Below the pieces are notes generated by a model. That model was given only the letters and a program-made list of their open reading frames with translations, was not told where the DNA came from and made no database searches. Shown one piece after another: positions 10,011-64,000 of a stretch of DNA of 64,000 nucleotides. Numbering within the stretch: the stretch's first letter is position 1; every line of letters starts with the position of its first letter. Source of the stretch: Escherichia phage vB_vPM_PD06; the sequence record NC_052653.1; one strand, written 5' to 3'. The translations under genes were made by a program, and so were the position numbers.

Positions 10011-10017
10011 TAAATCT

Positions 10018-12325: not shown

Positions 12326-12356
12326 ATATAGGAGATGCATAGCATCTCCTTTTAAA

Positions 12357-12432: not shown

Positions 12433-12439
12433 TTGAATA

Positions 12440-35262: not shown

Positions 35263-35265
35263 TAA

Positions 35266-35938: not shown

Positions 35939-36924
35939 AATACTTAGTAACAGGTGGTTTAGGCTTTATTGGAAGTGCGGTAGTTCGTTTCCTAGCTAAA
36001 AATACTAAGAATGATATTTACGTTATAGATAAATGGGGTTACGCTTCAGACCCTAGAAATTTATCAGAAACACCTAATGTAAAGTTTTGTCGTGTTGACT
36101 TGACAAATGCTCAGTTAACTGCTAAGATTGTGGCAGATGTTAACCCAGATTATATAATGCATCTTGCAGCAGAAAGTCACGTAGATAATTCAATAGCATC
36201 ACCGAGTGTTTTTATAAATTCAAATATTGTTGGAACATTTAATCTTCTAGAAGCTGTTCGTTTAATGGGAGATAAATCAAATCTTAAAATGTTTCATCAT
36301 ATTTCAACAGATGAAGTGTATGGTGATATGGAAGAAGGGGATTATCCGTTTACAGAACAGAATCCTTATAAACCAAGTAGTCCATATGCTGCATCTAAAG
36401 CTGCAAGCGATCATTTGGTAAGAGCGTGGCATCGTACTTATGGTATTCCGACAGTTATAACAAATTGTTCAAATAATTTTGGAGCGTATCATCATCCAGA
36501 AAAACTAATACCTAAAACGATAACAAATATCTTGATGCATAAACCAATCCCTGTTTATGGCAATGGTCTTCAAGTAAGAGACTGGCTATACGTTGACGAT
36601 CACGCAGAAGCATTACACCTAGTAGTAACTAAAGGCAAATCTGGAGAAACATATAATATTGGGAGCAGAAACCCTAGAACTAATATTGATGTAATCTATA
36701 TGATTTGTGATTATATGGATGCGGTATATCCATCTGAAACAGATGCTTGTAGCCTCATTGAGATGGTTACAGATAGGCCTGGGCATGATCTAAGATATGA
36801 AGTGAATCCTTATAAGATTGAAAAGGAATTAGGGTGGAAAGCTAAAGGCACATTTGAAGAAAAACTTTATTCAACCATTGATTGGTATGTAGATAACAAA
36901 GAGTGGTGGGAAAATAAAGTTTAA
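35935..36924 (+). CDS. rmlB: dTDP-glucose 4,6-dehydratase
   Basis: N-terminal TGGLGFIGS Rossmann motif, catalytic YAASK, STDEVYG. Confidence 0.85.
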
Positions 36925-37814: not shown

Positions 37815-38369
37815 ATGATTCAAGCAACAAAAATCGAAGATTTGTTGATCATTCAACCTGACGTTTACGGGGATGAACGTGGTTTTTTCTTAGAAAGTTT
37901 TAATCAGGCTTTATATGATCAATACATAGGTAAACAAAACTTTGTCCAAGATAACCATTCACGTTCTATTCGAGGAGTTCTACGTGGGCTTCATTTTCAA
38001 AAGAAAAACCCACAAGGGAAGTTAGTACGTTGTGTTCGTGGTGAAGTTTATGATGTTGCTGTAGATATTAGGGTTGGTAGTCCAACATTTGGAGAATGGG
38101 TAGGTGTTCTTTTATCTGAAAAGAATAAAACACAATTTTGGATTCCTCCTGGTTTCGCTCATGGCTTTGTTGTGATTAGCGACATTGCTGATTTTGAATA
38201 TAAATGTACAGAATATTACGATCCGACTTCAGAGTGTAGTCTTGCGTGGAATGATCCAGATATCAATATAGATTGGGGTTTTGATTTAATCTTTAATGAT
38301 ATTAATTTTAAACCTATCTTGTCACAAAAAGATCAGGAAGCCAAAACACTAAAGGAGATCATATTTTGA
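37815..38369 (+). CDS. rmlC: dTDP-4-dehydrorhamnose 3,5-epimerase
   Basis: DERGFFLESF, RGLHFQ, WIPPGFAHGF cupin motifs; 184 aa. Confidence 0.85.
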   Translation: MIQATKIEDLLIIQPDVYGDERGFFLESFNQALYDQYIGKQNFVQDNHSRSIRGVLRGLHFQKKNPQGKLVRCVRGEVYDVAVDIRVGSPTFGEWVGVLLSEKNKTQFWIPPGFAHGFVVISDIADFEYKCTEYYDPTSECSLAWNDPDINIDWGFDLIFNDINFKPILSQKDQEAKTLKEIIF

Positions 38370-39196
38370 CAAAATTTTTAATCTTTGGTTCAAAAGGTCA
38401 ATTAGGACAATCTTTGGCAAAAGTTGCACCAGAAGATGTTATTTTGATTGAAGCAAGTGATATAGACATTACCAACTTTAAAGATGTTATGAATAGTCTT
38501 GTACAGCACGTGCCTGATGTTGTTGTGAATTGTGCGGCTTACACGGCAGTAGATAAAGCTGAAGAAGATGTTAACACCTGTATAAATGTTAATGCATACG
38601 GTGCAACAAACATTGCCAAAGCATGTAATGATTTACTGATACAGTTTGTACATATTTCAACAGACTATGTTTTTGATGGACATGTTGCTGGCACAGAAGA
38701 GAGTAAAACAAACCCCTTGAACACCTACGGTTACAGTAAACAATTAGGTGAAACTTTAGTACAAGCAGTTTGTCCTACAGCACTTATTATCAGAACAGCT
38801 TCTGTTTATAGTGAATTTGGACATAACTTTTTGAAAACTATGTTGGAACGCTACAACGGTGGTCAAAAAGAATTTAATGTAGTATGTGATCATTTATCAT
38901 GTCCTACTTATGCACCTGATCTTGCAGAAACAATTTTTAAACTTGTAAAAGATGGTGTAAATAGTAAAATTGTACACTATGCAGGTGCAGATTATATTTC
39001 TTGGTATGATTTTGCACGTAAGATATTTCTTGTTATAGATTTGTCTGTTACAGTTAATCCTGTATCTGCTTCAACCTATAATTCTAAAGCAGTCAGACCA
39101 GCAACATCTTATTTAAAAACAGATCCTACTTTAAATCCGCGAAGTGTTGATAGCGGTATTGTAAGAACTTTAACTATACTTTTAAACAAGGAGTGA
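38366..39196 (+). CDS. rmlD: dTDP-4-dehydrorhamnose reductase
   Basis: N-terminal LIFGSKGQLGQ, NCAAYTAVDKAE, STDYVFDG; TTG start overlapping rmlC stop. Confidence 0.8.
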   Translation: MTKFLIFGSKGQLGQSLAKVAPEDVILIEASDIDITNFKDVMNSLVQHVPDVVVNCAAYTAVDKAEEDVNTCINVNAYGATNIAKACNDLLIQFVHISTDYVFDGHVAGTEESKTNPLNTYGYSKQLGETLVQAVCPTALIIRTASVYSEFGHNFLKTMLERYNGGQKEFNVVCDHLSCPTYAPDLAETIFKLVKDGVNSKIVHYAGADYISWYDFARKIFLVIDLSVTVNPVSASTYNSKAVRPATSYLKTDPTLNPRSVDSGIVRTLTILLNKE

Positions 39197-51760: not shown

Positions 51761-51797
51761 AAAAGCCCCTAGAAGTGATTCTAGGGGCTTTATTTTA
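51761..51797. terminator. Bidirectional rho-independent terminator between convergent blocks
   Basis: AGCCCCTAG-AAGTGATT-CTAGGGGCT flanked by A-run upstream and T-run downstream. Confidence 0.7.
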
Positions 51798-52176: not shown

Positions 52177-52500
52177 TTACACAATGTGTTTTGTTTTAAC
52201 GTGCGAAGATTTAAAAATCTTATTATGTGATGAAATACAACTATCACGGAACACATAATAGTTAACAACATCGGGCTTATCAACACAGAGTGTAACCACA
52301 ACTTTCATAGGTATAGATACATTCTCACGAAGAGTAACACTACCTTTCAAACGTTCAGATGAAATGTGAATCAAACCTTCTTTTTCATCAATGATAACTT
52401 CTTTAACATTTTTGAAATTATAACAAGAGTTATCAACATAAGATACCCTTGCTTTTGTTTGCTTCTGTTTAGGACGAGAACCAGTATTTATTTTTTGCAT
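52177..52500 (-). CDS. Hypothetical protein
   Basis: 107-aa ORF. Confidence 0.45.
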   Translation of the reverse strand: MQKINTGSRPKQKQTKARVSYVDNSCYNFKNVKEVIIDEKEGLIHISSERLKGSVTLRENVSIPMKVVVTLCVDKPDVVNYYVFRDSCISSHNKIFKSSHVKTKHIV

Positions 52501-52508
52501 AGTTTTCC

Positions 52509-52796
52509 TTATTTGCTTTCACGAGCAAAATAATAATTTTCATATTCATTACGTGTAACGATTTCTGGATGATCAGGTTCACCGTAACTAAGTTTAACTT
52601 CAGGATACACTTTGGTGTTGAACAGACACGTAACACCTCTCATATAATATCCTGTAGGACTTAAAACAACATCGTCTTCACTTACACTTGAGAATTTTAT
52701 TTCACCATTAGTATCTTTGACGACAATAAGAGCATGTTCAGGCCAATCAAGATTCTCTTCTTTTAGTTTTTCATAAACTTCTTGTACTAGTTCCAT
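52509..52796 (-). CDS. Hypothetical protein
   Basis: 95-aa ORF. Confidence 0.45.
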   Translation of the reverse strand: MELVQEVYEKLKEENLDWPEHALIVVKDTNGEIKFSSVSEDDVVLSPTGYYMRGVTCLFNTKVYPEVKLSYGEPDHPEIVTRNEYENYYFARESK

Positions 52797-52805
52797 ATTG
52801 CCTCC

Positions 52806-52979
52806 TCAGATTACAAATTTTTCTTCTTCTGGTTTCTCGTAGTTGGGAGAATAAACGTGGGATGGATTAAAACCTTTAAAGCTACCTCGCCCTTTTCGTG
52901 GACAATTGAACGTCTTAGCTTGGTGATCACCAAAAGATTTACCACAATGTACACATTTATAATTGGTATCTTTGAACAT
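52806..52979 (-). CDS. Small zinc-ribbon protein
   Basis: 57-aa ORF MFKDTNYKCVHCGKSF...FNCPRKGRG with GGAGAG upstream; chosen over the track ORF 52811-53008, which lies in another frame. Confidence 0.4.
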   Translation of the reverse strand: MFKDTNYKCVHCGKSFGDHQAKTFNCPRKGRGSFKGFNPSHVYSPNYEKPEEEKFVI

Positions 52980-53135
52980 TTTACTCTCCTTTGAAAGATA
53001 GGCTGCACAATAGTACAGCCTTTTAGAAAATTAGTGTTTAAATTTTTCGATTACTTCGTCAACTTTAGCGATGATAACATCCTGATACTTGTGACCAAAA
53101 TAACCAACAACAACACCAACAATAAACGTCATCAT

Positions 53136-53735
53136 TTACTTCTCCTTTTTAACTATAATGGCTTCTTCATTCAGAGTAAACAGCAAGGAAGATGTATCAC
53201 CAACACACCTTGCACCTGGAATGAGTTCTAAAATTTTAGAGGATATAGCAATAGTATCTTCATCCAGTACGTATTCCCCAGGTAACAATCTTAATGTTAT
53301 TGGAAAATCTACAGATGCCAAACCAGAGAACATCCCATCATTCAGAAGAATAACTTCTAAACTGCTATCTTCTTGTTGTGCATTATGCACTTTTTCAGGT
53401 AAGAAGTCAATACATTGATTTAAAATTTCTACATCTAATTCTACACCAGTCCTAGCCTTATAAACTCTAGCCAAATCTATGATCCGAGAATCAATGCTGG
53501 CGTAAGGAGATTCCAAGTGTTTTGGGTCAATAGGAGCAACGCGCAATTTACTATCGAGAGATATCCACGTTACAATCCACATTTCACCAACCCCAGGTTG
53601 ATCTCGCGCAGTAAGGAATTCTACTAATGCTCCAGGATTAGGCATTATGTAATCTTGTGTGATCAACATGTTCTTTACTCGCAAAAGCATTCCTGGCTTT
53701 AGCAAGCCCTTCTCACCACTCCAATATTCTTTCAT
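53136..53735 (-). CDS. Hypothetical protein
   Basis: 199-aa ORF. Confidence 0.5.
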   Translation of the reverse strand: MKEYWSGEKGLLKPGMLLRVKNMLITQDYIMPNPGALVEFLTARDQPGVGEMWIVTWISLDSKLRVAPIDPKHLESPYASIDSRIIDLARVYKARTGVELDVEILNQCIDFLPEKVHNAQQEDSSLEVILLNDGMFSGLASVDFPITLRLLPGEYVLDEDTIAISSKILELIPGARCVGDTSSLLFTLNEEAIIVKKEK

Positions 53736-53749
53736 TTTTACTCCTGATT

Positions 53750-54022
53750 TTAATGTCGTAGTTCACTAAACTTACAAACAAAGTGAACGTTAAGAAAAGT
53801 TAGTTTTCGATCTGGTGTAAACTCTGTTACTGTTTTATACACCTGGGCAATACCGAACCTGTTGACAGCAGGTACTGACAATTGGCTTATACATTTCATA
53901 GCTGATAGTTTTGCCTCTTCTTCAGATGCAAAATAAGTAAACATACCTTCTTCGTCAACTATAATTTCTTGTGTAACACAATCTACAAAACAAAAGAAAA
54001 CATTAGGTAAGTTTTCCGACAT
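53750..54022 (-). CDS. Hypothetical protein
   Basis: 90-aa ORF. Confidence 0.45.
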   Translation of the reverse strand: MSENLPNVFFCFVDCVTQEIIVDEEGMFTYFASEEEAKLSAMKCISQLSVPAVNRFGIAQVYKTVTEFTPDRKLTFLNVHFVCKFSELRH

Positions 54023-54023
54023 A

Positions 54024-54236
54024 TTAGTTGTTCCTGTACTTAGAGAACAAAGTATTGATTAACCAATCAGCAAACAATAGTCCAAGTGTACCAATACCGT
54101 AACCGATAAGCATAATGTAAGGCACTGCCTTATTTTCATTACCTGTCATCACTTCAGGAAAAATCAAAAATACAATACCGTTACCAACGATAATCCAGAA
54201 CATAAGAAACACAAAAACACGAAGCAACATTCCCAT
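54024..54236 (-). CDS. Small membrane protein
   Basis: 70 aa with two hydrophobic segments. Confidence 0.45.
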   Translation of the reverse strand: MGMLLRVFVFLMFWIIVGNGIVFLIFPEVMTGNENKAVPYIMLIGYGIGTLGLLFADWLINTLFSKYRNN

Positions 54237-54237
54237 A

Positions 54238-54420
54238 TTATTCTTCCTCCTTCACTTCTTCAACTTTACGAAGCATACGTTTATCAAATGTAGCTTTCTG
54301 TAGTTGCTCATTAACATCAAACCACACCACTTCGCAAGTATCGTAAGTAGATACCATTACAGTCATTAACATTTCTTCGCTGGCAAGACGTACAATATCA
54401 CCTGTTTTAATATTTACCAT
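54238..54420 (-). CDS. Hypothetical protein
   Basis: 60-aa ORF. Confidence 0.4.
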   Translation of the reverse strand: MVNIKTGDIVRLASEEMLMTVMVSTYDTCEVVWFDVNEQLQKATFDKRMLRKVEEVKEEE

Positions 54421-54824
54421 AACTCCTCCAGAAGTTTACCAAGTTTAGTTTTAAATTCATTATCCCACGCTATGCTAACTATGTCAAGATCACCTTGTGA
54501 ATTACGTTTTGTCTCTAAATAGTAGCCACCACGCTCATATCGGTGTTTTATATGCTCGATCAGACGTTCTTTATCACTCTTAGATAAATAATCATCAAAC
54601 TCCCCATTGAAAAGATCTAAGATTGTTTGTCTATTATCTCCTAATTGAGTGATTCTAAAGCTAATCAGACACCCCTGTAAACCTATATCTGTTTGTTTAA
54701 GAGAAAACCCATGACCAAAGCCGCCTGTGACTATAACAAGCGGTTTTCCTGTGATAGAGCTTTTAATAACATCTTGCTTAGGTTCTGCCAAAGATGTTAG
54801 AAACCCTTTTAACCATTTGAACAT
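54414..54824 (-). CDS. Hypothetical protein
   Basis: 136-aa ORF. Confidence 0.5.
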   Translation of the reverse strand: MFKWLKGFLTSLAEPKQDVIKSSITGKPLVIVTGGFGHGFSLKQTDIGLQGCLISFRITQLGDNRQTILDLFNGEFDDYLSKSDKERLIEHIKHRYERGGYYLETKRNSQGDLDIVSIAWDNEFKTKLGKLLEELW

Positions 54825-54929
54825 AAACCCTCCTGTGTGGCGTGGCTTTGCCTAAGCGCCGAAGGCGCGGATCAAATATAAGCTGAATTTATTACGCCCA
54901 GGTAGCCAGGGCGCATAAATATCAGAAAT

Positions 54930-55178
54930 TTACCATCGAATAACTATTCGAGTAAAGTTTTCATCGTAATGAGATGTTTCTGTATCAATAAAAGTTGAAA
55001 AACCTTCAGCATCCAAGTTAACTTTTACAAAAGTTGGATAAAGCGTGTATATAGCAACTTCTCTGTCTCCATCTTTAGCTGCTCTCTCAATATACGAGTA
55101 GATATTTTGTAGACTATCCTTTGCTTTGTTAAGTTCTGCGTTTTCTGCCAGTTCTCTCATTTTATCTGCTACAGTCAT
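54930..55178 (-). CDS. Hypothetical protein
   Basis: 82-aa ORF. Confidence 0.45.
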   Translation of the reverse strand: MTVADKMRELAENAELNKAKDSLQNIYSYIERAAKDGDREVAIYTLYPTFVKVNLDAEGFSTFIDTETSHYDENFTRIVIRW

Positions 55179-55447
55179 TTGTCAGTATCCTTTTCAATAA
55201 ATCCTGTGGTTTTACAAGGCACACATTCGTACATTTGCCCAACATCTGCAACCACCCAACCCATTCCACTGCAATAAGGGCAGATTGTTTTGTTCTCTTT
55301 AGCATACACAGCCAGAAGTCTTTCTTCTAGCTTATTGTAATCAGCAAGAAGAACATAATCCCCTTCTGGATCTGGTACAATATCACATTGACCAGCAGCA
55401 CCTTGGCTGTACACCTCTAAGTCATATCGTGTAACCATTATTCCCAC
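55175..55447 (-). CDS. Small zinc-ribbon-like protein
   Basis: CPYCSGMG ... CVPCKTTG paired CxxC motifs. Confidence 0.45.
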   Translation of the reverse strand: MGIMVTRYDLEVYSQGAAGQCDIVPDPEGDYVLLADYNKLEERLLAVYAKENKTICPYCSGMGWVVADVGQMYECVPCKTTGFIEKDTDK

Positions 55448-55656
55448 TCCGCAATCAGTTTTGGATTTTCTGCACGAGAATAGAATGTTGTAATGTCACC
55501 GTAAGTGTACTCTTGTTCCGACAGTTTTACAAGAGAGATCATTTCACGATCTGGAGTACCGGAGATCCAATCGAACACAGCAACACCACGAGGTGTTACA
55601 TAGAAACCAGATGTATTACCAGTAAACTTATCTTTTGCTTTATATAATTTGTACAC
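55438..55656 (-). CDS. Hypothetical protein
   Basis: 72-aa ORF. Confidence 0.4.
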   Translation of the reverse strand: MYKLYKAKDKFTGNTSGFYVTPRGVAVFDWISGTPDREMISLVKLSEQEYTYGDITTFYSRAENPKLIAEWE

Positions 55657-55863
55657 TTTCTACTCCTCATAGATAAAATCTATTAAAAACCTGCTATCAA
55701 TCGGTACAAACAGTTTTACTTTTCGTAAAAAACATGCTACCCTAATCTTATATACCGAGCGATAGCGAGGTAGAGAATATTCCATGTTATACATGGAAAG
55801 AGTATATGTAATGTTACTAACTCTATAACTAACTATATACTCTTTATATCTTACTTACTACTC

Positions 55864-56127
55864 TTATTGAAGTTCAAAGATATCTCCATCTCCATCATAT
55901 CCATACTCTAACTCTCCTGTATCATATAATACAATAAAGTCTGTATCATCTTCAATAAAAGATTTAGCATAATCTGCTAACTCTTCATTATCTTCATAAC
56001 CTTCCAGGTACTCAATACGACCATTGATACACTTAGCTGCAACAACTCCTGGGCCATTGCTTGGAGTCCACTCACTGTATACTCGCATGCCTAATTCTTT
56101 AATCATTGTTTGTCTCCTCATAATCAA
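55864..56127 (-). CDS. Hypothetical acidic protein
   Basis: 87-aa ORF. Confidence 0.45.
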   Translation of the reverse strand: MIMRRQTMIKELGMRVYSEWTPSNGPGVVAAKCINGRIEYLEGYEDNEELADYAKSFIEDDTDFIVLYDTGELEYGYDGDGDIFELQ

Positions 56128-56323
56128 TGTAGTTGTAACATTTATTCTTTAAGAAATCTTCTGCTTGTTTATTGTGTTTTAGAATGGTGCACTTCTCTAT
56201 ATTATGTTCTACATTGTTGTGTAGATTGTATAAATTAGATGCACCATACAGGATACCAATTAACAAAAGCAAAAAGATTGCTGTTGATAACAAAAATTGT
56301 TGCAACTTGTTTACAGACTTCAT
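56099..56323 (-). CDS. Small membrane protein, paralog of 61109-61348
   Basis: N-terminal TM segment; shares C..KH...AE.FL...C..Y..Y pattern with 61109-61348. Confidence 0.45.
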   Translation of the reverse strand: MKSVNKLQQFLLSTAIFLLLLIGILYGASNLYNLHNNVEHNIEKCTILKHNKQAEDFLKNKCYNYIDYEETNND

Positions 56324-56376
56324 AAACCCTCCTTATCGTTAGTACACATTGATACTAACAAGAAGTTAAGATCGTG

Positions 56377-56550
56377 TCAACATCTTTGTGTTAATTTTAT
56401 CCACTGTTCACATTCTTCTTTTGTGTCATACTCTACAGGCTTTCCTGTATCATTTCCACAACCATCTCCGAATGTAGCCCACCAGGAGAATAGAAAACAA
56501 GTTTCTCTTACTCTCCACTTATTGGCATAAGGTACAACATAATAACTCAT
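56377..56550 (-). CDS. Small Cys/Trp-rich protein
   Basis: 57-aa ORF not in track; fills gap in gene array. Confidence 0.3.
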   Translation of the reverse strand: MSYYVVPYANKWRVRETCFLFSWWATFGDGCGNDTGKPVEYDTKEECEQWIKLTQRC

Positions 56551-56798
56551 AGGATTGTGATCCTTAGTTCATTTTCTAAAGTATGTCTCACACATTCTTT
56601 GAAATTGTTATCAATATAAACCACACGTACCCCATGAGGTGTTTCTTTACATTCAAACACATTATATACAGTGTCAGATAAGACATGTTGTACGTTTACT
56701 TGTCCAATACCATTTTTAACCACAACCATTACTTTCAGTAAACTTGTATGGTTTTTAACTTCATCTTCTACGTATGCGACAACATCTTTGATATTCAT
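56547..56798 (-). CDS. Hypothetical protein, paralog of N-terminal domain of 62832-63293
   Basis: VKNHTSLLKV...GIGQVNVQHVLSDTVYNVFECK aligns with VKEHSSLLDV...VGIVCVRHILSETRYEVFRAK. Confidence 0.5.
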   Translation of the reverse strand: MNIKDVVAYVEDEVKNHTSLLKVMVVVKNGIGQVNVQHVLSDTVYNVFECKETPHGVRVVYIDNNFKECVRHTLENELRITIL

Positions 56799-57094
56799 CG
56801 TTTCTCCTGTTTAAGTACGATATAAGATTGACGAGATTTCCATCTCCCTATCTTAACAAGGCAAATAATGCCCCTCTTTAACAGATATTTCATATCTTCG
56901 TCATAAGCTGTTTGCAATTGCCACTTACTGTTAACAGGAAGCGAACCATGTACCCTTAAATGAGCTAACAAATACTTTCTTCGCTCCTTTCCATAAGGCA
57001 GGTATTGCCATTCTTTCTTTGATACAGGTTCATGTACTTTACGATGCCAGTAAGTAAGGTGTCTTCTTTTATGTAAACCCCTGTTCCTTACCAT
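56795..57094 (-). CDS. Hypothetical basic protein
   Basis: 99-aa ORF, Arg/Lys-rich. Confidence 0.45.
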   Translation of the reverse strand: MVRNRGLHKRRHLTYWHRKVHEPVSKKEWQYLPYGKERRKYLLAHLRVHGSLPVNSKWQLQTAYDEDMKYLLKRGIICLVKIGRWKSRQSYIVLKQEKR

Positions 57095-57333
57095 TGTACC
57101 TCTACCTCCGTTACCCCAGGATCTCTAGTCCAGGTGTAGTAGAGCACACCATCTTCTTTCAGTGCAATGCGATCACTTTCGTCTCGAAGATATAGGTCAC
57201 ATACTACGCGCAGTTGCGGATCTGATCCTAGTAGTTCTGAAACAATAAAGTCATCATCACTCATACGAGCAACAATCACTGCATATTGACCAGTATCTTC
57301 ATCAAAAATTGGTTGTCCGATGTTTAATTGCAT
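57088..57333 (-). CDS. Hypothetical protein
   Basis: 81-aa ORF. Confidence 0.45.
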   Translation of the reverse strand: MQLNIGQPIFDEDTGQYAVIVARMSDDDFIVSELLGSDPQLRVVCDLYLRDESDRIALKEDGVLYYTWTRDPGVTEVEVQW

Positions 57334-57518
57334 TGTGTTGTCTCCTTATTCAGTACGTTGTTTTGTGCTGCGCACCAGCACTCATAAAAACCTTGGGTTA
57401 ATGGCATAGTGTAGTTTCCAGAAGGATCTCTTTCGAGATCCCCGTCTGCATAACAACCACTACCTAAGAACCATTTTTCAAAATCGGATAAATCATCCCA
57501 GTATACGCTATTTTTCAT
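57324..57518 (-). CDS. Hypothetical protein
   Basis: ATG at 57518 two nt after upstream stop; about 64 aa. Confidence 0.4.
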   Translation of the reverse strand: MKNSVYWDDLSDFEKWFLGSGCYADGDLERDPSGNYTMPLTQGFYECWCAAQNNVLNKETTQCN

Positions 57519-57519
57519 A

Positions 57520-58011
57520 TTATACCGTCTTATACCCGACAATAGCAACCTGATTCGTAGGCTTCCAACGACCAATAATCTCACCAGAAATCTCTGTGCT
57601 ACTGTTTATGTATTGGTAATGGGTATCATCATGATTAACCCACGCCATAACGTCAAGGGTAGGGGTTTTGACGTGTACCAGTAGTGTAGCCCATTCTGGA
57701 GCTTCTTTAATATCCACAGAATCTTGCCAATCTTCTTCGATGTGCCAAGTAGGTTCACCATCAACATCTGTAACGAAGAAACGAGCTTTCATACGTTTAA
57801 AGAACATTGGTGTATACCCATGATCGCACTCTGGGATAAAATCATCCATCGTTTCGTCATAGGTGAAATATTGTCCATCTTTATAATGAAAAGATGCACA
57901 AAACAGTTCATTACGAGCAGGAACATGCCATACAGCTACAAAACTACGACCATGTGGATAATGTTTAACCTCTTGCATAGTTTTCTCCTTATTTTTCTTC
58001 AAAAGAATCAA
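57520..58011 (-). CDS. Hypothetical protein
   Basis: 163-aa ORF. Confidence 0.5.
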   Translation of the reverse strand: MILLKKNKEKTMQEVKHYPHGRSFVAVWHVPARNELFCASFHYKDGQYFTYDETMDDFIPECDHGYTPMFFKRMKARFFVTDVDGEPTWHIEEDWQDSVDIKEAPEWATLLVHVKTPTLDVMAWVNHDDTHYQYINSSTEISGEIIGRWKPTNQVAIVGYKTV

Positions 58012-58341
58012 TTCTGTTTTGTTCTATGTCAATTGCAGCATCTAGAATAAGTTTTAATGCTTCCAATTGCAAGTCTTCTTCTAAAGAGAAGACATATAAA
58101 ACAACGGACTCCAAGTAAGACAGCACCCCAAGACTAAGAGTTGCAATCTCTACTCCTGCATCGGAGAAGCCTGTTTGCAAAACTTCTTTGAAGAAACGTT
58201 GTTTATCAACAATAGCAGATAAAATAAGCGTTTTACGCTCCTCTGCTGATCGCACTGTGCAGTATATGTTGCTAAAAGAATCCAGCCACATCTTGATCAT
58301 ACCTTGTCGGTACATAAGGATTTCAATATCAGCCAACATAT
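57989..58341 (-). CDS. Hypothetical protein
   Basis: ATG at 58339-58341 (MLADIEIL...) with GAGGAG upstream. Confidence 0.45.
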
Positions 58342-58507
58342 TATTTCTCCTCTGGAGAGAGATTTGGATTAATTTGATAGTAAAAATCAAAATCCTTGTG
58401 TTGATCGCACCATTCTTGAGCCTCTTTAAATGACGCAAATTGCATAGTGAATGTTGCCATCCACGTGTTCATATTTTTGTTGAACTTGTCGATAAAAAAT
58501 GTTTGCA
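58341..58507 (-). CDS. Small hypothetical protein
   Basis: ATG (MQTFFIDKF...) with GGGAGGAG upstream; about 55 aa. Confidence 0.35.
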
Positions 58508-58741
58508 TTACTCCTCCCATTTTATCCAAAGGCAGTATTCTGGAACATAAACCTCCTTCCCTTTGTTATTCACAAAGGTGTACTCCACAAATTCTGCTTT
58601 ATATGTTTTGTTATATTCCTGTGCTGCTGGCACAGGACATTTTGTAATGCGCGTTTCAGTCCAACGGCGGTGTATAACCGCCTTGTTCTTTGGATCAAAC
58701 GGATGTATAAAGTGCGTTTTACTCATGTGCCATTTCCACAA
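58508..58741 (-). CDS. Hypothetical protein
   Basis: 77-aa ORF. Confidence 0.4.
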   Translation of the reverse strand: MWKWHMSKTHFIHPFDPKNKAVIHRRWTETRITKCPVPAAQEYNKTYKAEFVEYTFVNNKGKEVYVPEYCLWIKWEE

Positions 58742-59123
58742 GATTTTTAATCATAGTTTCTCGACAGAGATTCCACATATCTGAAGCAACCATAGAAGCA
58801 TATTCATCGGGGTTGGATTCTGGTAAAATCTCTTTAACTGCTTCTGGTGTCGGGTTGCACATAGCAGGTAGTGCTTTAAGTGCATCTTCAATAGAGAGCT
58901 TCTTACCTTCACTGTAAATAACTTCGTAACCATAGTCATTTACATCTTCTGGAATATCCCGATCCAGGAAACGCACAGTAGAATTATGCATTTTGTTCAT
59001 AGCTTCACTAACACCAGCGCCACAAAGCTGTGCAACTTCTTTAGAGATACAGTCACAAATAACAACTTCGTAAGGTTTTCCACCATAATACTGCGCATTA
59101 TATTTGATTTTAACAGACCACAT
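58719..59123 (-). CDS. Hypothetical protein
   Basis: 134-aa ORF. Confidence 0.5.
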   Translation of the reverse strand: MWSVKIKYNAQYYGGKPYEVVICDCISKEVAQLCGAGVSEAMNKMHNSTVRFLDRDIPEDVNDYGYEVIYSEGKKLSIEDALKALPAMCNPTPEAVKEILPESNPDEYASMVASDMWNLCRETMIKNLVEMAHE

Positions 59124-59133
59124 CTTACTCTCC

Positions 59134-59817
59134 TTATTTAACGTGTTTTAGCAATTCAATGTTAGCAGAATAGTTTTCACCACAATTAGTAACGCTCAAC
59201 AGTGACCATTTGCAAGAGAATACACCTTTTAGATGATCTGGAACACACATTAGCGGAACATAAACTGTTTCTGAATCTTCTGTTTGCTCTGTTTTGTTAA
59301 CATTGCAACAGAATGGCAATACATCATCATGAATCATTTTACATTCACTCAAATTATCTAACATATGTGAAACTTGCTCTGAAGTTTCAAACATTTGTGC
59401 TTCACAAGCCAGTGCACCAACCACTTGATAAGCCTCTCCACACAAATCTTCTAGTTCTAAAATACGTTCAGACATAGCTTCAATGATTGCTGATCGTGCT
59501 TTCACCTTAGTTTCTGCTTCTTTAATTTTCTTCTCAAGTTCTGCAATGTACTTCAGTAGTGCACTAACAACATCTGGAGTATTTTCTTCATTATCTTGGG
59601 AAATTTTTACCAAAGAAGAAGCTGCTCTGCAACGGACTTTAGGTTCTACGTAGCCAAAAGTCATATTTTCAGAAGAAGATTGTTGTGAAAACCAATGTTT
59701 GTTCGAAAACACAGGTTCATCTTCAAACCAGAACACATCTCCAGTGATGTCACGAGCCATAAAATTTGCATTGTCTGGAACTTCGTAACGATGACCTTCA
59801 AACATAGTCTCTTTCAT
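59134..59817 (-). CDS. Hypothetical protein
   Basis: 227-aa ORF with central coiled-coil-like segment. Confidence 0.5.
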   Translation of the reverse strand: MKETMFEGHRYEVPDNANFMARDITGDVFWFEDEPVFSNKHWFSQQSSSENMTFGYVEPKVRCRAASSLVKISQDNEENTPDVVSALLKYIAELEKKIKEAETKVKARSAIIEAMSERILELEDLCGEAYQVVGALACEAQMFETSEQVSHMLDNLSECKMIHDDVLPFCCNVNKTEQTEDSETVYVPLMCVPDHLKGVFSCKWSLLSVTNCGENYSANIELLKHVK

Positions 59818-60401
59818 TACACATCCTCCATTTGGAACATCTCTTTGTGGTTAGAATAGATCTGTTTGAAAATCTTGTCAAGACGTTCATATGATTCTTT
59901 ATGCTCTTGTTTCCATCCTTGATTTCGGATTTTATCTGCCAGATCATAAACCTCGCATAAAACTTTGGCAAAGTTGGTATTATCTATAGCACAAGCCTCA
60001 AAACCTTGAACTAAACCCTCTACATCGTACCACGTATAGTCAGAGTCACTAGGAGTCTTTCCTGCATCGGCTAAACGTTGCCTTACCCATTCAATACGTT
60101 TTTCATTCAAATGGCACTTACCTTCTCTACACTCTTGTTCTAATTCTTCTTTAGATTCGTTGAATGGGTGAAGGACAGGAAGTTCTGCTTTTTGCAATTG
60201 CTCCAGGTATTCACCTACAATGCGCATAGCTTCACTGTGTGTACACTTTCTGCCTGTGTGCCAATAACGGAAGATACTTTCCGTTAAACAGATGCTTTTA
60301 CTAAACATCGCATTGTCTTTAACATTCGATCTAGTAACCCAGTCTAAGTAATATACATAAAACTGCAATAATTCATAACTGCTTGGTATAATTTTACTCA
60401 T
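59817..60401 (-). CDS. Hypothetical protein, paralog of 61311-61679
   Basis: Shares LLQFY, LHPFN and HLN(E/K)(K/E)R..WV..R blocks with 61311-61679. Confidence 0.5.
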   Translation of the reverse strand: MSKIIPSSYELLQFYVYYLDWVTRSNVKDNAMFSKSICLTESIFRYWHTGRKCTHSEAMRIVGEYLEQLQKAELPVLHPFNESKEELEQECREGKCHLNEKRIEWVRQRLADAGKTPSDSDYTWYDVEGLVQGFEACAIDNTNFAKVLCEVYDLADKIRNQGWKQEHKESYERLDKIFKQIYSNHKEMFQMEDV

Positions 60402-60579
60402 AACCTCTCCTTAATTGTGAAAAATGTTATCAATCAATATGACTAATAATACAAGGATAGAAGGGAGTAGGAACAGAAATCTTAACATTATGTGATGCGT
60501 GTGAGAAGCGGCTTTAGCGCCAGCCGCCAATAAGCCTACTAGTCCTACAATAAAGAGCAGTTGTTCAGGGACACCCATA

Positions 60580-60804
60580 TTATGGAACACTTGGATACTC
60601 CGTAAGTTCGGCTAACAATTGAATATGTGGACACGTGAATTGTTGTCCTGGATAGCGTGAGCTAATATCCTCCAGCAAAGCAATCACAGCATTATGCAAT
60701 GCTTCGTAATCTTCATAATACACCATTTCTCCATTAGGATCTTCCACAATATCGCAGTGGCAAGCGTGAGCAGTACACGCATCCCATTCCAGACGTTTTA
60801 CCAT
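60580..60804 (-). CDS. Hypothetical protein
   Basis: 74-aa ORF, Cys/His-rich. Confidence 0.45.
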   Translation of the reverse strand: MVKRLEWDACTAHACHCDIVEDPNGEMVYYEDYEALHNAVIALLEDISSRYPGQQFTCPHIQLLAELTEYPSVP

Positions 60805-60850
60805 AAACCCTCCTATTTATATATCAAGAAACACAAAAGAATAACATCTA

Positions 60851-61099
60851 TCACCAAACCGTTACTACTCCGGTACGTAGCGTCTCTTCATGTCCCCAAA
60901 TATCCGCTTCAATTGTAATTACAACCCACTCCGTGCTCCACTGAATACCAGTGATCTCTGTGAGATGTGCAGCTTCACGTTGTAGTGAGGCTGTGTCTGT
61001 AAGAGACGCACGTAAAGCATCCAATTCTTGTTCAATTTTGGTACGTTCTTCTTCGGTAATCGGTGTACCAACACGATCAAAGGTAAAAATATCTAACAT
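60851..61099 (-). CDS. Hypothetical protein
   Basis: 82-aa ORF. Confidence 0.45.
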   Translation of the reverse strand: MLDIFTFDRVGTPITEEERTKIEQELDALRASLTDTASLQREAAHLTEITGIQWSTEWVVITIEADIWGHEETLRTGVVTVW

Positions 61100-61108
61100 A
61101 CTTCCCTC

Positions 61109-61348
61109 CTAATTATAATTCACATAGCGCCCACAATCCTGTTCAAGAAATTTTTCAGCATCCCTTTGATGCTTGAACACAATACACTGTTCTTTTTTAG
61201 CTTCACTTTCACGAGCTTCTCTTGCCATATAATCACCTAAACGAATGATACCAGAGAATAACACGTATGCAAGAATAAGACAAACAGAGATTGCACAGAA
61301 AGTTTTAAACTTAACCATTGTATTCCTCCATATCACGAATACGATCAA
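61109..61348 (-). CDS. Small membrane protein, paralog of 56099-56323
   Basis: TM segment plus conserved C-terminal Cys/His pattern shared with 56099-56323. Confidence 0.4.
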   Translation of the reverse strand: MIVFVIWRNTMVKFKTFCAISVCLILAYVLFSGIIRLGDYMAREARESEAKKEQCIVFKHQRDAEKFLEQDCGRYVNYN

Positions 61349-61679
61349 TCACCCATTGTACACGTTCTTTGTTAAGGTGTGCAATGCCTAACTCTGTCTC
61401 CGTAAAGTAGTGTGAGAAATCTGTATTAAATGGATGTAAATGGTTCAAACCCGCTTTCTTAAACTGTTCCTTCATTTCCTCTCGTACAGAGGCTTGAAGG
61501 TTTGCTACATTCTCAACGTCTTTTATCCAAGCAATATTGTATAAGAAGTCTACAAGACACGTGCAAAGACCATAATGCTTTTTGCTAAAGTTTGTATCTT
61601 CTTGTTCTAACCACCACTCATAAAATTGTAGCAAATAGGGGCTGCTTTTCATGTTACACACTTTATTATTCTCTTGCAT
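61311..61679 (-). CDS. Hypothetical protein, paralog of 59817-60401
   Basis: Shared sequence blocks with 59817-60401. Confidence 0.45.
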   Translation of the reverse strand: MQENNKVCNMKSSPYLLQFYEWWLEQEDTNFSKKHYGLCTCLVDFLYNIAWIKDVENVANLQASVREEMKEQFKKAGLNHLHPFNTDFSHYFTETELGIAHLNKERVQWVIDRIRDMEEYNG

Positions 61680-61688
61680 GATCTATCC

Positions 61689-61988
61689 TTAATGCCAGTC
61701 TACGATCACTGAATCTACAAAACCCTCTTTGGTATTTAAAGCATACACCTTACTAAGACCACGCTCTCGCAGTGCTTCCATAGCAAGATCAATCAAATCC
61801 ACTTGGCGTTTCCTTGCTTGTTCATTTGTCGGATAGTCATCCAAACCGAAAACAGATGGTTTAAATGCTTTGGAGTATTTGCCAGTTTTTGCCTGATCAT
61901 AACAGTCCTGAATAACTTCATCAATAGGAAACCACAAGCCTTCTCCACTTTGCTTTGCAATACAGCGCAGTTTTTCTGTAACAGTCAT
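61689..61988 (-). CDS. Hypothetical protein
   Basis: 99-aa ORF. Confidence 0.45.
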   Translation of the reverse strand: MTVTEKLRCIAKQSGEGLWFPIDEVIQDCYDQAKTGKYSKAFKPSVFGLDDYPTNEQARKRQVDLIDLAMEALRERGLSKVYALNTKEGFVDSVIVDWH

Positions 61989-62206
61989 TCTTCCTCTCCT
62001 TTCAATTTACACTCAAAGATACCATTCTTAATGTTATCTGTCAAATAAAGACTATCTTCTATCTCTTCTTTTGTATACACATAAGCCTCCTTTTCCACGT
62101 CTGTCAGACCTTGCATCGGAGCTAGTAGCCACCAGCCCCGCCAGTCAAACATTGGAGACTTATCAGATACACGAAGAATGTATCTATCATTACACATATT
62201 ATACAA
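61985..62206 (-). CDS. Hypothetical protein
   Basis: 73-aa ORF. Confidence 0.4.
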   Translation of the reverse strand: MYNMCNDRYILRVSDKSPMFDWRGWWLLAPMQGLTDVEKEAYVYTKEEIEDSLYLTDNIKNGIFECKLKGEEE

Positions 62207-62651
62207 TGTTCACATGAATATCTGCAACACCAATAAGAGAATATACTTCAACTACACTCTGTGTACGATCCAGTTTGTAACGTTTTGCCTCTTTTTCAAC
62301 TTCCTCACGGTAGATGGTTTCCACGATTGGAACTCCGTCCACTACTAGCAGGTATTTCTCTTCACGTTTACTTTTTGGTGCTTCCTCTAATACTTCTACA
62401 AAGTATTCAAACTCACTTTTTGCAAGCAACGTGTAACACTGAAGAAAGTCTCCTTCATTTTGAGCGATAATTTCTTGTTCTCCTGCTAAGGATTGCAAAG
62501 CAGTGACACCATACCAGTCATCCACATCTAATACACGAAAATAGGAATCACCTAAGAAAGAAGCAATCTTGCTATTGCACTCAGACACATTAGCAAACTT
62601 ACGGATATAAGATGCGTTCTTAAAACGATATACTTTACCAATTTCAAACAT
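62199..62651 (-). CDS. Hypothetical protein
   Basis: 150-aa ORF. Confidence 0.5.
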   Translation of the reverse strand: MFEIGKVYRFKNASYIRKFANVSECNSKIASFLGDSYFRVLDVDDWYGVTALQSLAGEQEIIAQNEGDFLQCYTLLAKSEFEYFVEVLEEAPKSKREEKYLLVVDGVPIVETIYREEVEKEAKRYKLDRTQSVVEVYSLIGVADIHVNIV

Positions 62652-62659
62652 TACACAAC

Positions 62660-62839
62660 TCCTTATTGTTCAAGAGTAAAAGGAATGATCTCACCATAGC
62701 TGTATTGCATGGCATTCACTTCTGCTTCTGCACGTTGTGCTAGTTCTAATGTTGCACAGATCTTATAAGGAACAGTGCTGCATTGGCTCCAGCCTGGGGT
62801 ATTCTTTGTTACTAAGTACACAGTAGTTTCTTTATTCAT
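62660..62839 (-). CDS. Small hypothetical protein
   Basis: 59-aa ORF from ATG with GGAGAGG upstream; not in track. Confidence 0.3.
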
Positions 62840-63293
62840 AACTTTCCTCTCCTAGTTCATCATACCATTTCAAAGCATCTTTTGGAAGCATACCAAAATC
62901 TTCTTTCAGTTCTTTTTCAATCTCTTCTTTCAGTTCATTCAACACTTGCAGTTGGCGTATTTTCTTCCGTAACAAAGTTTCCCGCTCATTGTTGCTTGGT
63001 GTTACTTCATTTGCTGCTATCATCACATATCCGGTCGGAGAGCAAGGAAGATAATCATCAATATTTTCTAAAGCATAACGAAAATTGGAATCCAAGAAGT
63101 TTACATGCACTTGATCACATCCAAACAACTTGGCACGAAATACTTCATAACGAGTTTCAGATAAGATATGTCGCACACAGACAATACCTACATCATTTTG
63201 CACTGCACAGGTTACATCTAACAAACTTGAGTGTTCTTTGACATAATCTGCAACACATTGCACATGTGCTTCCAGTATAGATAGTTGTCTCAT
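62832..63293 (-). CDS. Hypothetical protein, first gene of minus-strand early array
   Basis: 153-aa ORF; N-terminal domain paralogous to 56547-56798; acidic coiled-coil-like C-terminus. Confidence 0.5.
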   Translation of the reverse strand: MRQLSILEAHVQCVADYVKEHSSLLDVTCAVQNDVGIVCVRHILSETRYEVFRAKLFGCDQVHVNFLDSNFRYALENIDDYLPCSPTGYVMIAANEVTPSNNERETLLRKKIRQLQVLNELKEEIEKELKEDFGMLPKDALKWYDELGEESYE

Positions 63294-63360
63294 TTTCTAC
63301 CTCCTCATAATGCTAACATTTTATTGAAAATGGAAACGCGTCGTGCGCGGTATGCAAACC

Positions 63361-63388
63361 ACTATACAGACATTTTTATTCAATGCAA
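63361..63388 (-). promoter_or_regulatory. Sigma70-like promoter candidate for minus-strand early array
   Basis: In minus sense TTGCAT, 16-nt spacer, TATAGT, about 70 nt upstream of ATG at 63293. Confidence 0.4.
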
Positions 63389-63720
63389 GCATTATTTGCA
63401 TCTTCGATTCTGTCTTTCACCCGCTGCAATAATGAAGGATTTAGTATAGGAATTAGTATAGGTATTCCCTATCAATTATTCTATATATACCTATTATTTT
63501 TAACACACCCTTTGTACATAATATAGACAAATAAATATCTATGCCACAAAAATTTTCCGGTATACCCGATTTATTTCGACACACCCCGTTTTCATAAGCG
63601 TAAAGTCAATAATATCAATAACTTGCCGCAAAATACTGCTCGCTTGCGAGAGGTGCTTAACGCGATTTTCAGCGCCCCCCGATTTCTGCCGACCGTCCCC
63701 CTCAAATATCAATGAGAATT

Positions 63721-63734
63721 ATTATCATTTGCAT
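63721..63734. repeat. 14-mer ATTATCATTTGCAT, copy 1
   Basis: Exact 14-nt match to 63916-63929; related ATTATTTGCAT at 63391-63401. Confidence 0.6.
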
Positions 63735-63915
63735 TATCATTCAATGACTTATAAGATTTTTGATTATTTTCTGAGCAAGAAAGGCATTACTCACAACAAA
63801 ACAGATAAATTCTAAGTAAATCAATGGCTTGGCATTTCTAAACATCTATATACACCTTGCCAAATGAAATGATCCTGCGTGAAATAGTGCCACCCGTGGA
63901 AGATAGCTGATAATG

Positions 63916-63929
63916 ATTATCATTTGCAT
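63916..63929. repeat. 14-mer ATTATCATTTGCAT, copy 2
   Basis: Exact 14-nt match to 63721-63734. Confidence 0.6.
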
Positions 63930-64000
63930 ATTTTCTATACTATAAAACGCCCTAAAAATCAAGATAATTCTGATTTATTGCGCTTTTAAGAAAGTAGGCT

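What the first reader, a model, noticed from the sequence alone, without database searches (positions are those of the whole stretch)
56099..63293. Three paralogous gene families dispersed through the minus-strand early array
Pairs 56547-56798 / 62832-63293, 56099-56323 / 61109-61348 and 59817-60401 / 61311-61679 share clear sequence blocks but are in different relative order, so this is not one tandem duplication. Diversified paralogs among early genes are typical of host-takeover or anti-defence proteins under arms-race selection.
Basis: seen in the sequence. Interest (0 to 1): 0.5.

Follow-up and report, generated by a model that had tools for sequence, protein, structure and literature searches.

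The report
Old paralog families in phage early genes
The first genes of this phi92-like E. coli phage include four (not three) pairs of anciently duplicated small genes of unknown function, one of which belongs to a very large uncharacterised phage family that includes phage N4 gp3; this is a real but fairly ordinary feature of big lytic phages.

Summary
All three claimed pairs are homologous at protein level (E 1e-13, 4e-9 and 7e-12; none of 2000 shuffles reached the observed score). I found a fourth pair, D: 55175-55447 / 60580-60804. The window is a phi92-like Justusliebigvirus, and the array corresponds to phi92 gp001-gp03x, next to the left terminal repeat.

The copies share no DNA similarity. 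B and D copies have positional counterparts in the sister genus Phapecoctavirus, so those duplications predate the genus split.

Ortholog dN/dS is 0.10-0.12 for family genes and 0.12-0.13 for the other array genes. This indicates purifying selection, not a point-mutation arms race. Variation comes instead from cassette gain, loss and swapping: A2 is present or absent, family C has 2-4 copies within the genus and at least 7 in ESCO13, and an 82-aa gene is an indel.

- **Family C:** a ~110-aa all-alpha domain (PHROG 2510/6418, no Pfam). It has 1,813 50%-identity cluster representatives, includes coliphage N4 gp3, and carries near-invariant Cys39, His101, Asn103, Arg106 and Trp109.
- **Family B:** a membrane-anchored protein with a two-Cys tail predicted to be periplasmic.
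- **Family A:** a small alpha+beta domain.
- **Family D:** a shared N-terminal module.

No known function, fold or anti-defence homology was found. An early accessory role is plausible. An anti-defence role is untested.

The parts
52177..63293 (-). Whole co-directional array of about 36 small genes (phi92 gp001 to about gp03x). It ends at terminator-like hairpins at 52171-52152 (-) and 51762-51791 (bidirectional).
   Evidence: ORF list; phi92 annotation; gene set and overlaps; terminator scan; pooled ortholog dN/dS 0.12-0.13.
62832..63293 (-). A2 (phi92 gp001, 153 aa). It is the first gene after the leader. It has an N-terminal alpha+beta domain (res ~5-80) shared with A1 and a C-terminal long-helix extension.
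   Evidence: AF2 pLDDT 78.5; N-domain 85-93. Present or absent among Justusliebigvirus genomes, with ~91% and ~56% alleles in Phapecoctavirus. Strong SD AGGAGG.
56547..56798 (-). A1 (phi92 gp020, 83 aa). It consists of the family-A domain only.
   Evidence: dN/dS 0.06-0.13. No A1-type copy in ESCO13 or TSP7_1.
61109..61318 (-). B2 (phi92 gp007, 69 aa from the ATG at 61318; the longest ORF runs to 61348). It has an N-terminal TM helix (res 7-25) and a C-terminal tail with Cys45 and Cys62. It overlaps the end of C2 by 8 nt.
   Evidence: Two 3'-end allele types that track the neighbouring indel.
56099..56323 (-). B1 (phi92 gp022, 74 aa). It has a TM helix at res 10-28 and Cys45 and Cys62. A promoter-like TTGACA-17-TAGTAT lies in the gap upstream (56380-56352).
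   Evidence: phi92 annotation gives a SignalP signal peptide. Positional ortholog ESCO13 12317-12523.
61311..61679 (-). C2 (phi92 gp006, 122 aa). It is a canonical member of the N4-gp3-like all-alpha family and carries the full conserved set G37-L38-C39, Q72, P83-F84, H101, N103, R106, W109.
   Evidence: (AF2: 6 helices, pLDDT 78, pTM 0.75).
59817..60401 (-). C1 (phi92 gp010, 194 aa). It is a divergent family-C domain (C-L-T in place of G-L-C) plus a 70-aa C-terminal extension. In ESCO13 that extension is a separate ORF (9884-10111).
60580..60804 (-). D2 (phi92 gp008, 74 aa). It has the N-terminal D module (C.CDIV.DP.G..V...DY..L) and a short tail.
55175..55447 (-). D1 (phi92 gp025; likely start ATG 55438). 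It has the N-terminal D module and a C-terminal double CxxCxGxG zinc-finger motif.
60851..61099 (-). Accessory 82-aa gene (phrog_17168) between B2 and D2. It is absent from phi92, and its presence tracks the B2 3'-end allele.
63294..64000 (-). Non-coding leader between the terminal repeat and A2. It is 95% conserved in EmilieFrey and contains a Fur-box-like site at 63909-63927.

Best explanation
SHOWN:
- The region is the leftmost small-gene array of a phi92-like (Justusliebigvirus) E. coli myovirus, adjacent to the terminal repeat.
- It holds four two-member protein families: A (gp001/gp020), B (gp007/gp022), C (gp006/gp010) and D (gp008/gp025).
- The copies are old. No DNA similarity remains, and amino-acid identity is 30-46%.
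- The B and D copies have positional counterparts in the sister genus Phapecoctavirus.
- Each copy is a real gene under purifying selection.
- Differences between related phages arise by gain, loss and swapping of whole gene cassettes, not by rapid point substitution.
- Families A and B are confined to this phage subfamily. D's module and especially C are widespread.
- C is a ~110-aa all-alpha domain with about 1,800 cluster representatives. It includes N4 gp3 and repeatedly expands in unrelated phages.

INFERRED mechanism:
- These are non-essential early accessory proteins, made as soon as the left genome end enters the cell, and each paralog has a distinct target.
- C-family proteins are cytoplasmic. 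They use a conserved pocket (Cys39, Gln72, His101, Asn/Asp103, Arg106, Trp109, Pro83-Phe84) to bind or chemically act on a ligand or host protein. C1 has lost the canonical G-L-C motif and gained a tail, so it has diverged in function.
- B proteins are bitopic inner-membrane proteins. Their ~35-residue periplasmic tail probably carries a disulfide and acts on the envelope, for example in superinfection exclusion or control of a periplasmic factor.
- A proteins are small alpha+beta binding modules. A2 probably oligomerises through its helical tail.
For: Homology of the pairs.

Source and position next to the terminal repeat.

Real genes: Shine-Dalgarno sequences and dN/dS 0.02-0.29 per family, pooled 0.10-0.12, against 0.12-0.13 for other array genes.

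Age: no nucleotide similarity. The array is collinear with ESCO13, with B2~6607, D2~7982, B1~12317 and D1~17016.

Cassette flux:
- A2 is present or absent and occurs in two Phapecoctavirus allele classes.
- The A2+gp002 segment is 90-95% DNA-identical in some Phapecoctavirus genomes while the rest of the array is not.
- EmilieFrey carries two tandem C genes plus two other genes in the A2 slot.
- The 82-aa indel is linked to the B2 3' allele.

Family C:
- Alignment and motifs; AF2 all-alpha model, pLDDT 78.
- 1,813 representatives at E<=1e-3 and 808 at E<=1e-10.
- At least 7 copies in ESCO13 and 4 tandem copies in T4-like JC221.
- N4 gp3 scores 61.5 bits.
- Near-invariant polar residues in 122 representatives; state of the window copies.

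Family B: TM helix plus Cys45 and Cys62 in both copies, and a conserved KEQCIV.KH...AEKFL..C motif. It is restricted to Stephanstirmvirinae.
Against: - No expression data exist for this phage group, so 'early' rests on position and on the analogy with N4 gp3. The sigma-70 promoter scan was not above the shuffle expectation (50 against 43 +/- 8).
- No functional homolog, fold match or anti-defence match was found for any family, so every functional statement is inference.
- The conserved residues of C were measured only on the top ~8% of hits.
- The C-family tree is star-like, so in-genome duplication and independent acquisition cannot be separated for C.
- The C-to-B adjacency is not seen outside Stephanstirmvirinae.
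Confidence: 0.6

Rival explanations
1. Ongoing arms race. The paralogs are anti-defence or host-takeover proteins kept diverse by positive selection on their sequences.
For: They sit in the first-entering accessory array. A2 is variable and exchanged between genera. Family C expands repeatedly in different phages. B genes have the highest dN/dS in the array, 0.26-0.29.
Confidence: 0.2
2. A single ancient segmental duplication of a block A-C-B-D, followed by differential loss and insertion. Justusliebigvirus lost the C gene upstream of B1. Phapecoctavirus lost the second A.
For: A, B and D are collinear in the two sets. A family-C gene immediately precedes and overlaps a B gene in the window (C2 to B2) and at both B genes of ESCO13 (6338-6652 to 6643-6843; 11994-12320 to 12317-12523). 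Families A and B are restricted to this subfamily, so they most likely duplicated within the lineage.
Against: Collinearity of three items has a 1 in 6 chance. The intervening genes show no homology between the two sets. The C tree does not pair the two B-linked C genes. C1 lies outside both sets. No A1-type gene is found in Phapecoctavirus.
Confidence: 0.3
3. Independent horizontal acquisition. The two members of a family, especially C, D and A2, entered the genome separately from the shared phage gene pool and did not arise by duplication in place.
For: Window C1 and C2 are as distant from each other as from copies in N4-like, T4-like and siphovirus genomes. The A2+gp002 segment is 90-95% DNA-identical in some Phapecoctavirus genomes while its flanks are not. 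The first-gene slot swaps cassettes. D's module occurs in unrelated phages.
Against: A and B have no known donors outside the subfamily. The positions of B and D copies are conserved across genera. Tandem, monophyletic expansions do occur elsewhere: four copies in JC221 and ESCO13 1466/1800.
Confidence: 0.3
4. Chance similarity between short proteins, or ORFs that are not genes.
For: The proteins are short (69-194 aa), and B contains a hydrophobic segment that could inflate scores.
Against: None of 2000 shuffles reached the observed score for any of the four pairs, and B holds without its TM segment. Whole-window E-values are 5e-11 to 3e-4. Profile cross-hits agree. Shine-Dalgarno sequences and dN/dS well below 1 show the ORFs are coding.
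Confidence: 0.01

Closest known systems
Coliphage N4 gp3 and PHROG families 2510 / 6418 / 27059 (all 'unknown function')
   Same: Window C2 and C1 match the same profile as N4 gp3 (61.5 bits) and these PHROGs. They share the ~100-120 aa size and the motifs FY..W, GLC, PF and H.N..R..WV. N4 gp3 lies near N4's left end (pos 1214-1528).
   Different: N4 has one copy. The window has two, relatives have 4 to at least 7, and a T4-like phage has four in tandem. N4's early genes are transcribed by its virion RNA polymerase; I found no evidence of such an enzyme here and assume host polymerase. No function is known for gp3 either, so the link gives context, not mechanism.
T4 superinfection-exclusion and lysis-inhibition membrane proteins (Imm, Sp, RI). 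This is a functional analogy from my own knowledge.
   Same: Family B proteins are also small proteins from the phage's early-region accessory array with one N-terminal membrane anchor and a short extracytoplasmic domain.
   Different: No sequence or profile similarity was detected. B has a conserved two-Cys motif and is confined to Stephanstirmvirinae. No structure model was made and no function was tested.
DnaJ-type CxxCxGxG zinc finger / anti-TRAP (Pfam PF00684, PF15777)
   Same: The D1 C-terminus contains CPYCSGMG...CVPCKTTG, two CxxCxGxG units. phi92 gp025 is annotated the same way.
   Different: Scores are far below the Pfam cut-offs (14.9 against 32.7 bits). D2 lacks this part, and the module shared by the paralogs is the N-terminal one, which has no named relative.
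XisI-like alpha+beta fold (PDB 3d7q, 2nvm)
T7 gp0.3 (Ocr) type 'first gene in, anti-restriction'. This is a positional analogy from my own knowledge.
   Same: A2 is the first gene after the terminal repeat, is acidic (pI 4.8), and is variable between strains.

Membership tests
N4 gp3-like family (PHROG 2510/6418) | Significant profile match over the whole ~100-110 aa domain | tested here: met
   C2 against phrog_2510 E 1.6e-25; C1 E 4.5e-18. N4 gp3 against the window-derived HMM 61.5 bits. 1,813 relatives found with the profile.
N4 gp3-like family (PHROG 2510/6418) | Conserved residues G37-L38-C39, Q72, P83-F84, H101, N103, R106, W109 | tested here: met
   C2 has all of them. C1 has all except the G-L-C motif, where it reads C-L-T.
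N4 gp3-like family (PHROG 2510/6418) | Early expression | not testable with these tools
   There is only positional evidence. No transcript data were found.
Recent tandem or segmental duplication | Residual nucleotide similarity between copies | tested here: not met
   The best blastn match between any pair is 19 nt at 89%.
Recent tandem or segmental duplication | Same gene order in the two copies of the block | tested here: inconclusive
   A, B and D are collinear, C is not, and the intervening genes are unrelated.
Genes under diversifying (arms-race) selection | dN/dS raised above neighbouring genes or above 1 | tested here: not met
   0.10-0.12 against 0.12-0.13. The excess in B2 is explained by a recombinant 3' end. 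Power is limited to three genomes and pairwise NG86.
Known anti-defence or defence-related protein families | Sequence or fold similarity to a characterised member | tested here: not met
Lar-like restriction alleviation (phrog_3592 / Pfam PF14354) | Profile match including the zinc-ribbon | tested here: not met
   D2 matches phrog_3592 only at E 8.6e-4 over residues 2-48. There is no Pfam hit, and the longer ESCO13 relative does not hit it.
DnaJ CxxCxGxG zinc finger | Two CxxCxGxG repeats and a score above the Pfam gathering threshold | tested here: inconclusive
   The motif is visible in D1, but the Pfam score is 14.9 against a cut-off of 32.7.
Bitopic membrane protein with a periplasmic disulfide (family B) | One N-terminal TM helix, basic residues before it, and paired Cys in the C-terminal tail | tested here: met
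   Kyte-Doolittle 19-residue maxima are 2.41 and 2.56. Cys45 and Cys62 are present in both copies and in all five aligned members. phi92 annotation gives a SignalP prediction. Topology and the disulfide themselves were not tested.
Sigma-factor-binding protein Crl | Profile match above cut-off and an alpha/beta Crl fold | tested here: not met

The most novel reading that the evidence does not exclude
Family C (N4 gp3-like) could be a pan-phage, copy-number-expandable family of early effectors. In this reading each paralog uses the same conserved Cys-His-Asn-Arg-Trp pocket to bind or modify a different host molecule, such as an immune signal or a defence or housekeeping protein. In Stephanstirmvirinae one C lineage would work as a translationally coupled pair with the membrane protein B. 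That would make these arrays a 'library' of counter-host specificities that is reshuffled by cassette exchange at the first-entering genome end.
Probability: 0.15. Interest if true: 0.7.

Novelty: new member of a known kind. Interest (0 to 1): 0.35.

Why it matters
Large lytic phages carry dozens of small early genes of unknown function, and this set is where host-takeover and counter-defence factors are usually found. This work does not reveal a new mechanism. It does four things:
- It turns a vague 'hypothetical protein' block into four defined families with exact members, starts and domain limits.
- It shows the copies are old, selectively maintained and exchanged as cassettes, so paralogs probably have distinct jobs.
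- It links two of the genes to a very large family without a Pfam entry that includes gp3 of the model phage N4. The family has a strikingly conserved Cys/His/Asn/Arg/Trp set, which gives a tractable entry point through N4 or BASEL-phage genetics and point mutants.
- It flags a membrane protein family (B) that is tightly linked to C genes.

Tried and rejected
- **A fifth pair, 54930-55178 / 61689-61988.** Both begin MTV..K.R..A and both are annotated as 'transcription regulator' in phi92. Rejected: E 0.015 over 14 aa and z 1.8.
- **Word-indexed homolog searches.** These found only near-identical relatives without names or Pfam domains.
- **AFDB50 fold library.** Not available.
- **BFVD.** Returned only uncharacterised family members.
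- **PDB profile searches.** Nothing found.
- **NCBIfam and PADLOC.** Nothing meaningful.
- **Weak Crl and Lar-like hits.** Considered and rejected; see the membership tests.
- **C-to-B as a general two-gene cassette.** Not seen outside Stephanstirmvirinae: the genes downstream of C are unrelated in Ea9-2 and SeSz-2, and in JC221 the C copies follow one another in tandem.
Not computable because synonymous sites are saturated.
- **Literature.** No description of these genes, of N4 gp3 function, or of temporal transcription in phi92-like phages was found. The phi92 genome paper is not held.

Full report
**Source and setting.**
The window is a phi92-like E. coli myovirus (Justusliebigvirus, Stephanstirmvirinae). 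Window 56000-63400 is 98.4% identical to phage PD114 and 96.5% identical to phi92 positions 592-7710.

In phi92 these genes are gp001 to about gp03x. They are read inward from the 343-bp left terminal repeat, and gp001 starts at position 699.

In the window the array occupies 52177-63293 on the minus strand. It holds about 36 tightly packed or overlapping small genes. It ends at terminator-like hairpins at 52171-52152 and 51762-51791.

**Checking the observation.**
All three pairs are homologous at protein level:
- A: 46% identity over 68 aa, E 1e-13.
- B: 30% over 50 aa, E 4e-9.
- C: 31% over 114 aa, E 7e-12.

They remain the only hits, plus one more pair, in an all-vs-all of all 381 ORFs of the window. 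The same holds in a lenient search (E<1) among the 36 array genes.

Smith-Waterman scores exceed every one of 2000 shuffles, with z = 19.9, 12.3 and 15.8. For B this is also true without its hydrophobic segment. Reciprocal PHROG hits agree.

The additional pair, D (55175-55447 / 60580-60804), shares an N-terminal ~45-aa module: 36% identity, E 6e-7, z 9.6. A tempting fifth pair (54930-55178 / 61689-61988) is not real.

All eight genes have Shine-Dalgarno sequences. B2 most likely starts at the ATG at 61318, not the TTG at 61348, and D1 probably starts at 55438.

**Order.**
In transcription order the genes run A2, (3 genes), gp005, C2, B2, (82-aa gene), D2, gp009, C1, (9 genes), A1, gp021, B1, (3 ORFs), D1.

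However, A, B and D are collinear, and only C breaks the pattern.

**Age and selection.**
The copies share no nucleotide similarity; the best match is 19 nt. dN/dS between paralogs therefore cannot be computed.

The array is collinear with that of Phapecoctavirus ESCO13. The anchors are:
- A2~2908
- gp003~3833
- gp005~5093
- B2~6607
- D2~7982
- B1~12317
- gp024~16575
- D1~17016
- gp028~17652, and further genes beyond it.

Each B and D copy therefore has a positional counterpart in the other genus, which places those duplications before the genus split. C has several copies in both arrays, but its orthology is unresolved. A1 has no counterpart in Phapecoctavirus.

NG86 dN/dS between the window and phi92, and between the window and EmilieFrey, gave these values:
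- The eight family genes pooled: 0.12 and 0.10.
- All other array genes: 0.12 and 0.13.
- Family A: 0.13 and 0.06.
- Family B: 0.26 and 0.29.
- Family C: 0.11 and 0.13.
- Family D: 0.04 and 0.02.

These are coding genes under ordinary purifying selection. B2's extra amino-acid changes are concentrated in its last ~12 codons, which come in two allele types. The types track the presence or absence of the neighbouring 82-aa gene 60851-61099. This is a recombination junction.

**Variation by cassette exchange.**
- A2 is present in phi92, ESCO9, PaulScherrer and VEcB but absent from many other Justusliebigvirus genomes, which keep only A1. Phapecoctavirus genomes carry ~91% or ~56% alleles.
- Only the A2+gp002 segment (window 62659-63300) is 90-95% DNA-identical in some Phapecoctavirus genomes.
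- In EmilieFrey the slot between the conserved leader and gp002 holds two tandem family-C genes plus two other genes instead of A2. A 58-nt junction sequence is re-used there.
- Family-C copy number therefore runs from 2 (window, phi92) to 4 within the genus, and to at least 7 in ESCO13.

**Family C.**
An alignment of 12 members defines a ~110-aa domain with the motifs LL.FY..WL, GLC.CL, AGL..PF and H.N..R..WV.

An exhaustive profile search found 1,813 50%-identity cluster representatives at E<=1e-3 and 808 at E<=1e-10. Most are stand-alone 100-120 aa proteins, and some are two- or three-domain fusions.

None of the ten representatives scanned at E<=0.01 carries a Pfam domain. Two members of one prophage cluster (P0184, P0190) carry DUF551 (PF04448). 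The family corresponds to PHROGs 2510, 6418 and 27059, all of unknown function.

Members occur in:
- N4-like phages, including N4 gp3 itself (61.5 bits) and Ea9-2 gene 07.
- Siphoviruses.
- Rhizobium phages.
- The jumbo phage BcepSaruman.
- A T4-like Yersinia phage, as four tandem monophyletic copies.

A neighbour-joining tree is star-like. Window C1 and C2 are as far from each other as from copies in unrelated phages.

In 122 diverse single-domain representatives, conservation is as follows:
- C39 99%
- G37 and L38 98% each
- Q72 91%
- P83 and F84 100% each
- H101 86%
- N103 87%, with D a further 9%
- R106 and W109 100% each

That pattern goes beyond a hydrophobic core. It suggests a ligand, metal or catalytic pocket. 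I could not check spatial clustering, and the sample is the top ~8% of hits.

Window C2 has the full set. Window C1 has C-L-T instead of G-L-C and a 70-aa tail that is a separate ORF in ESCO13.

**Family B.**
Both copies and three Phapecoctavirus members have the same layout. A basic N-terminus is followed by one TM helix and then a conserved tail, KEQCIV.KH...AEKFL..C, with Cys at positions 45 and 62. phi92's annotation gives a signal peptide for gp022.

The family is confined to Stephanstirmvirinae.

A family-C gene immediately precedes and overlaps a B gene in the window (C2 to B2, 8-nt overlap) and at both B genes of ESCO13. By my rough estimate, chance adjacency of both ESCO13 pairs is about (7/54)(6/53), or roughly 0.015. 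This suggests either a duplicated C-B unit or functional coupling. The adjacency is not seen outside the subfamily.

**Family A.**
A2's model (pLDDT 78.5) has a confident N-terminal helix plus four-stranded antiparallel sheet (res ~5-80), which is the part shared with A1. It also has long C-terminal helices.

**Family D.**
The shared part is an N-terminal module. D1 adds two CxxCxGxG units, which score below the Pfam threshold. That zinc-finger part is also present in a 48-aa plus-strand ORF at 35265-35411 and in an ESCO13 gene annotated as 'DNA ligase'.

D2's relative in ESCO13 is 148 aa and has a different tail. The D2 module also occurs in unrelated siphoviruses. A weak 'Lar-like' PHROG hit (E 8.6e-4) is not supported elsewhere.

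**Interpretation.**
Shown:
- There are four old, selectively maintained two-copy families in the terminal accessory array.
- Change occurs through cassette flux rather than fast substitution.
- Family C is part of a very large, recurrently expanding phage family that includes N4 gp3.

Inferred:
- The genes are expressed early.
- The paralogs have distinct targets.
- C uses a conserved pocket.
- B acts at the envelope.

The arms-race reading is not supported at the level of substitutions. The anti-defence idea remains open but has no positive evidence. BASEL phenotyping found phi92-like phages exceptionally sensitive to restriction-modification systems (PMC8594841).

Whether the pairs arose by one block duplication (A-C-B-D) or separately is unresolved.

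**Comparison and novelty.**
Dispersed paralog families among small early genes are a known feature of large lytic phages. I found no description of these particular families in the held literature.

I rate this a new member of a known kind, of modest interest. The most useful lead is the N4 gp3-like family and its conserved polar residues.

Noticed in passing
window 63909-63927 (minus strand), with a second look-alike at about 63716-63747: Fur-box-like sequence GCAAATGATAATCATTATC in the leader upstream of the array. It has 2 mismatches to the E. coli Fur consensus, and 0.09 matches are expected per window. A near-identical site lies in phi92 at record positions ~74-92, inside the 343-bp terminal repeat. 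This may indicate iron- or Fur-dependent control of the first transcripts.
   Followed up: partly
window 60851-61099 (-): An 82-aa gene (phrog_17168) is present here and in EmilieFrey and ZYD but absent from phi92, 92CQ, AV123 and KKE7M. Its presence goes with a different 3' end of the neighbouring B2 gene.
   Followed up: yes
window 63294-63293 boundary (first-gene slot); L015 2074-3557: In phage EmilieFrey the slot that holds A2 in the window contains two tandem family-C genes plus two other small genes. It is flanked by the same leader (95% identical) and by gp002, so this slot is a cassette-swap hotspot at the first-entering genome end.
   Followed up: yes
window 62199-62651 (-); L002 3362-5065: The single 150-aa gene gp003 has three tandem relatives in ESCO13 (3362-3820, 3833-4618, 4628-5065). 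This is another expandable family in the same array.
   Followed up: partly
window 35935-36924 and 38366-39196 (+): Two plus-strand ORFs share 28% identity over 163 aa (E 7e-8). They lie outside the finding and were not examined.
   Followed up: no
window 35265-35411 (+): A 48-aa ORF in the plus-strand block shares the CxxCxGxG zinc-finger with the C-terminus of D1 and matches phrog_8027.
   Followed up: partly
window 54825-54929 and 55795-55863 (minus strand intergenic gaps): The two largest gaps inside the array contain GC-rich hairpins (GCGCCC...GGGCG and GCGCCTTCGGCGC) that are not followed by a T-run, and an 11-bp inverted repeat (AAAGAGTATAT...ATATACTCTTT). These may be RNA processing or regulatory elements.
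   Followed up: no
window 56380-56352 (-): A promoter-like TTGACA-17 nt-TAGTAT with an extended -10 TG sits in the 53-nt gap just upstream of B1. Overall, the promoter scan of the array was not above shuffle expectation.
   Followed up: no
L006 1856-3170 (Yersinia phage JC221): Four tandem, mutually closest family-C genes lie next to the DNA ligase gene of a T4-like phage. This is an independent lineage-specific expansion of the same family.
   Followed up: partly
phage records MG065656, MG065645, MG065689 and others: Several records labelled 'Campylobacter phage' with host C. jejuni are ~97% identical to this E. coli phage group. The host labels look doubtful.
   Followed up: no
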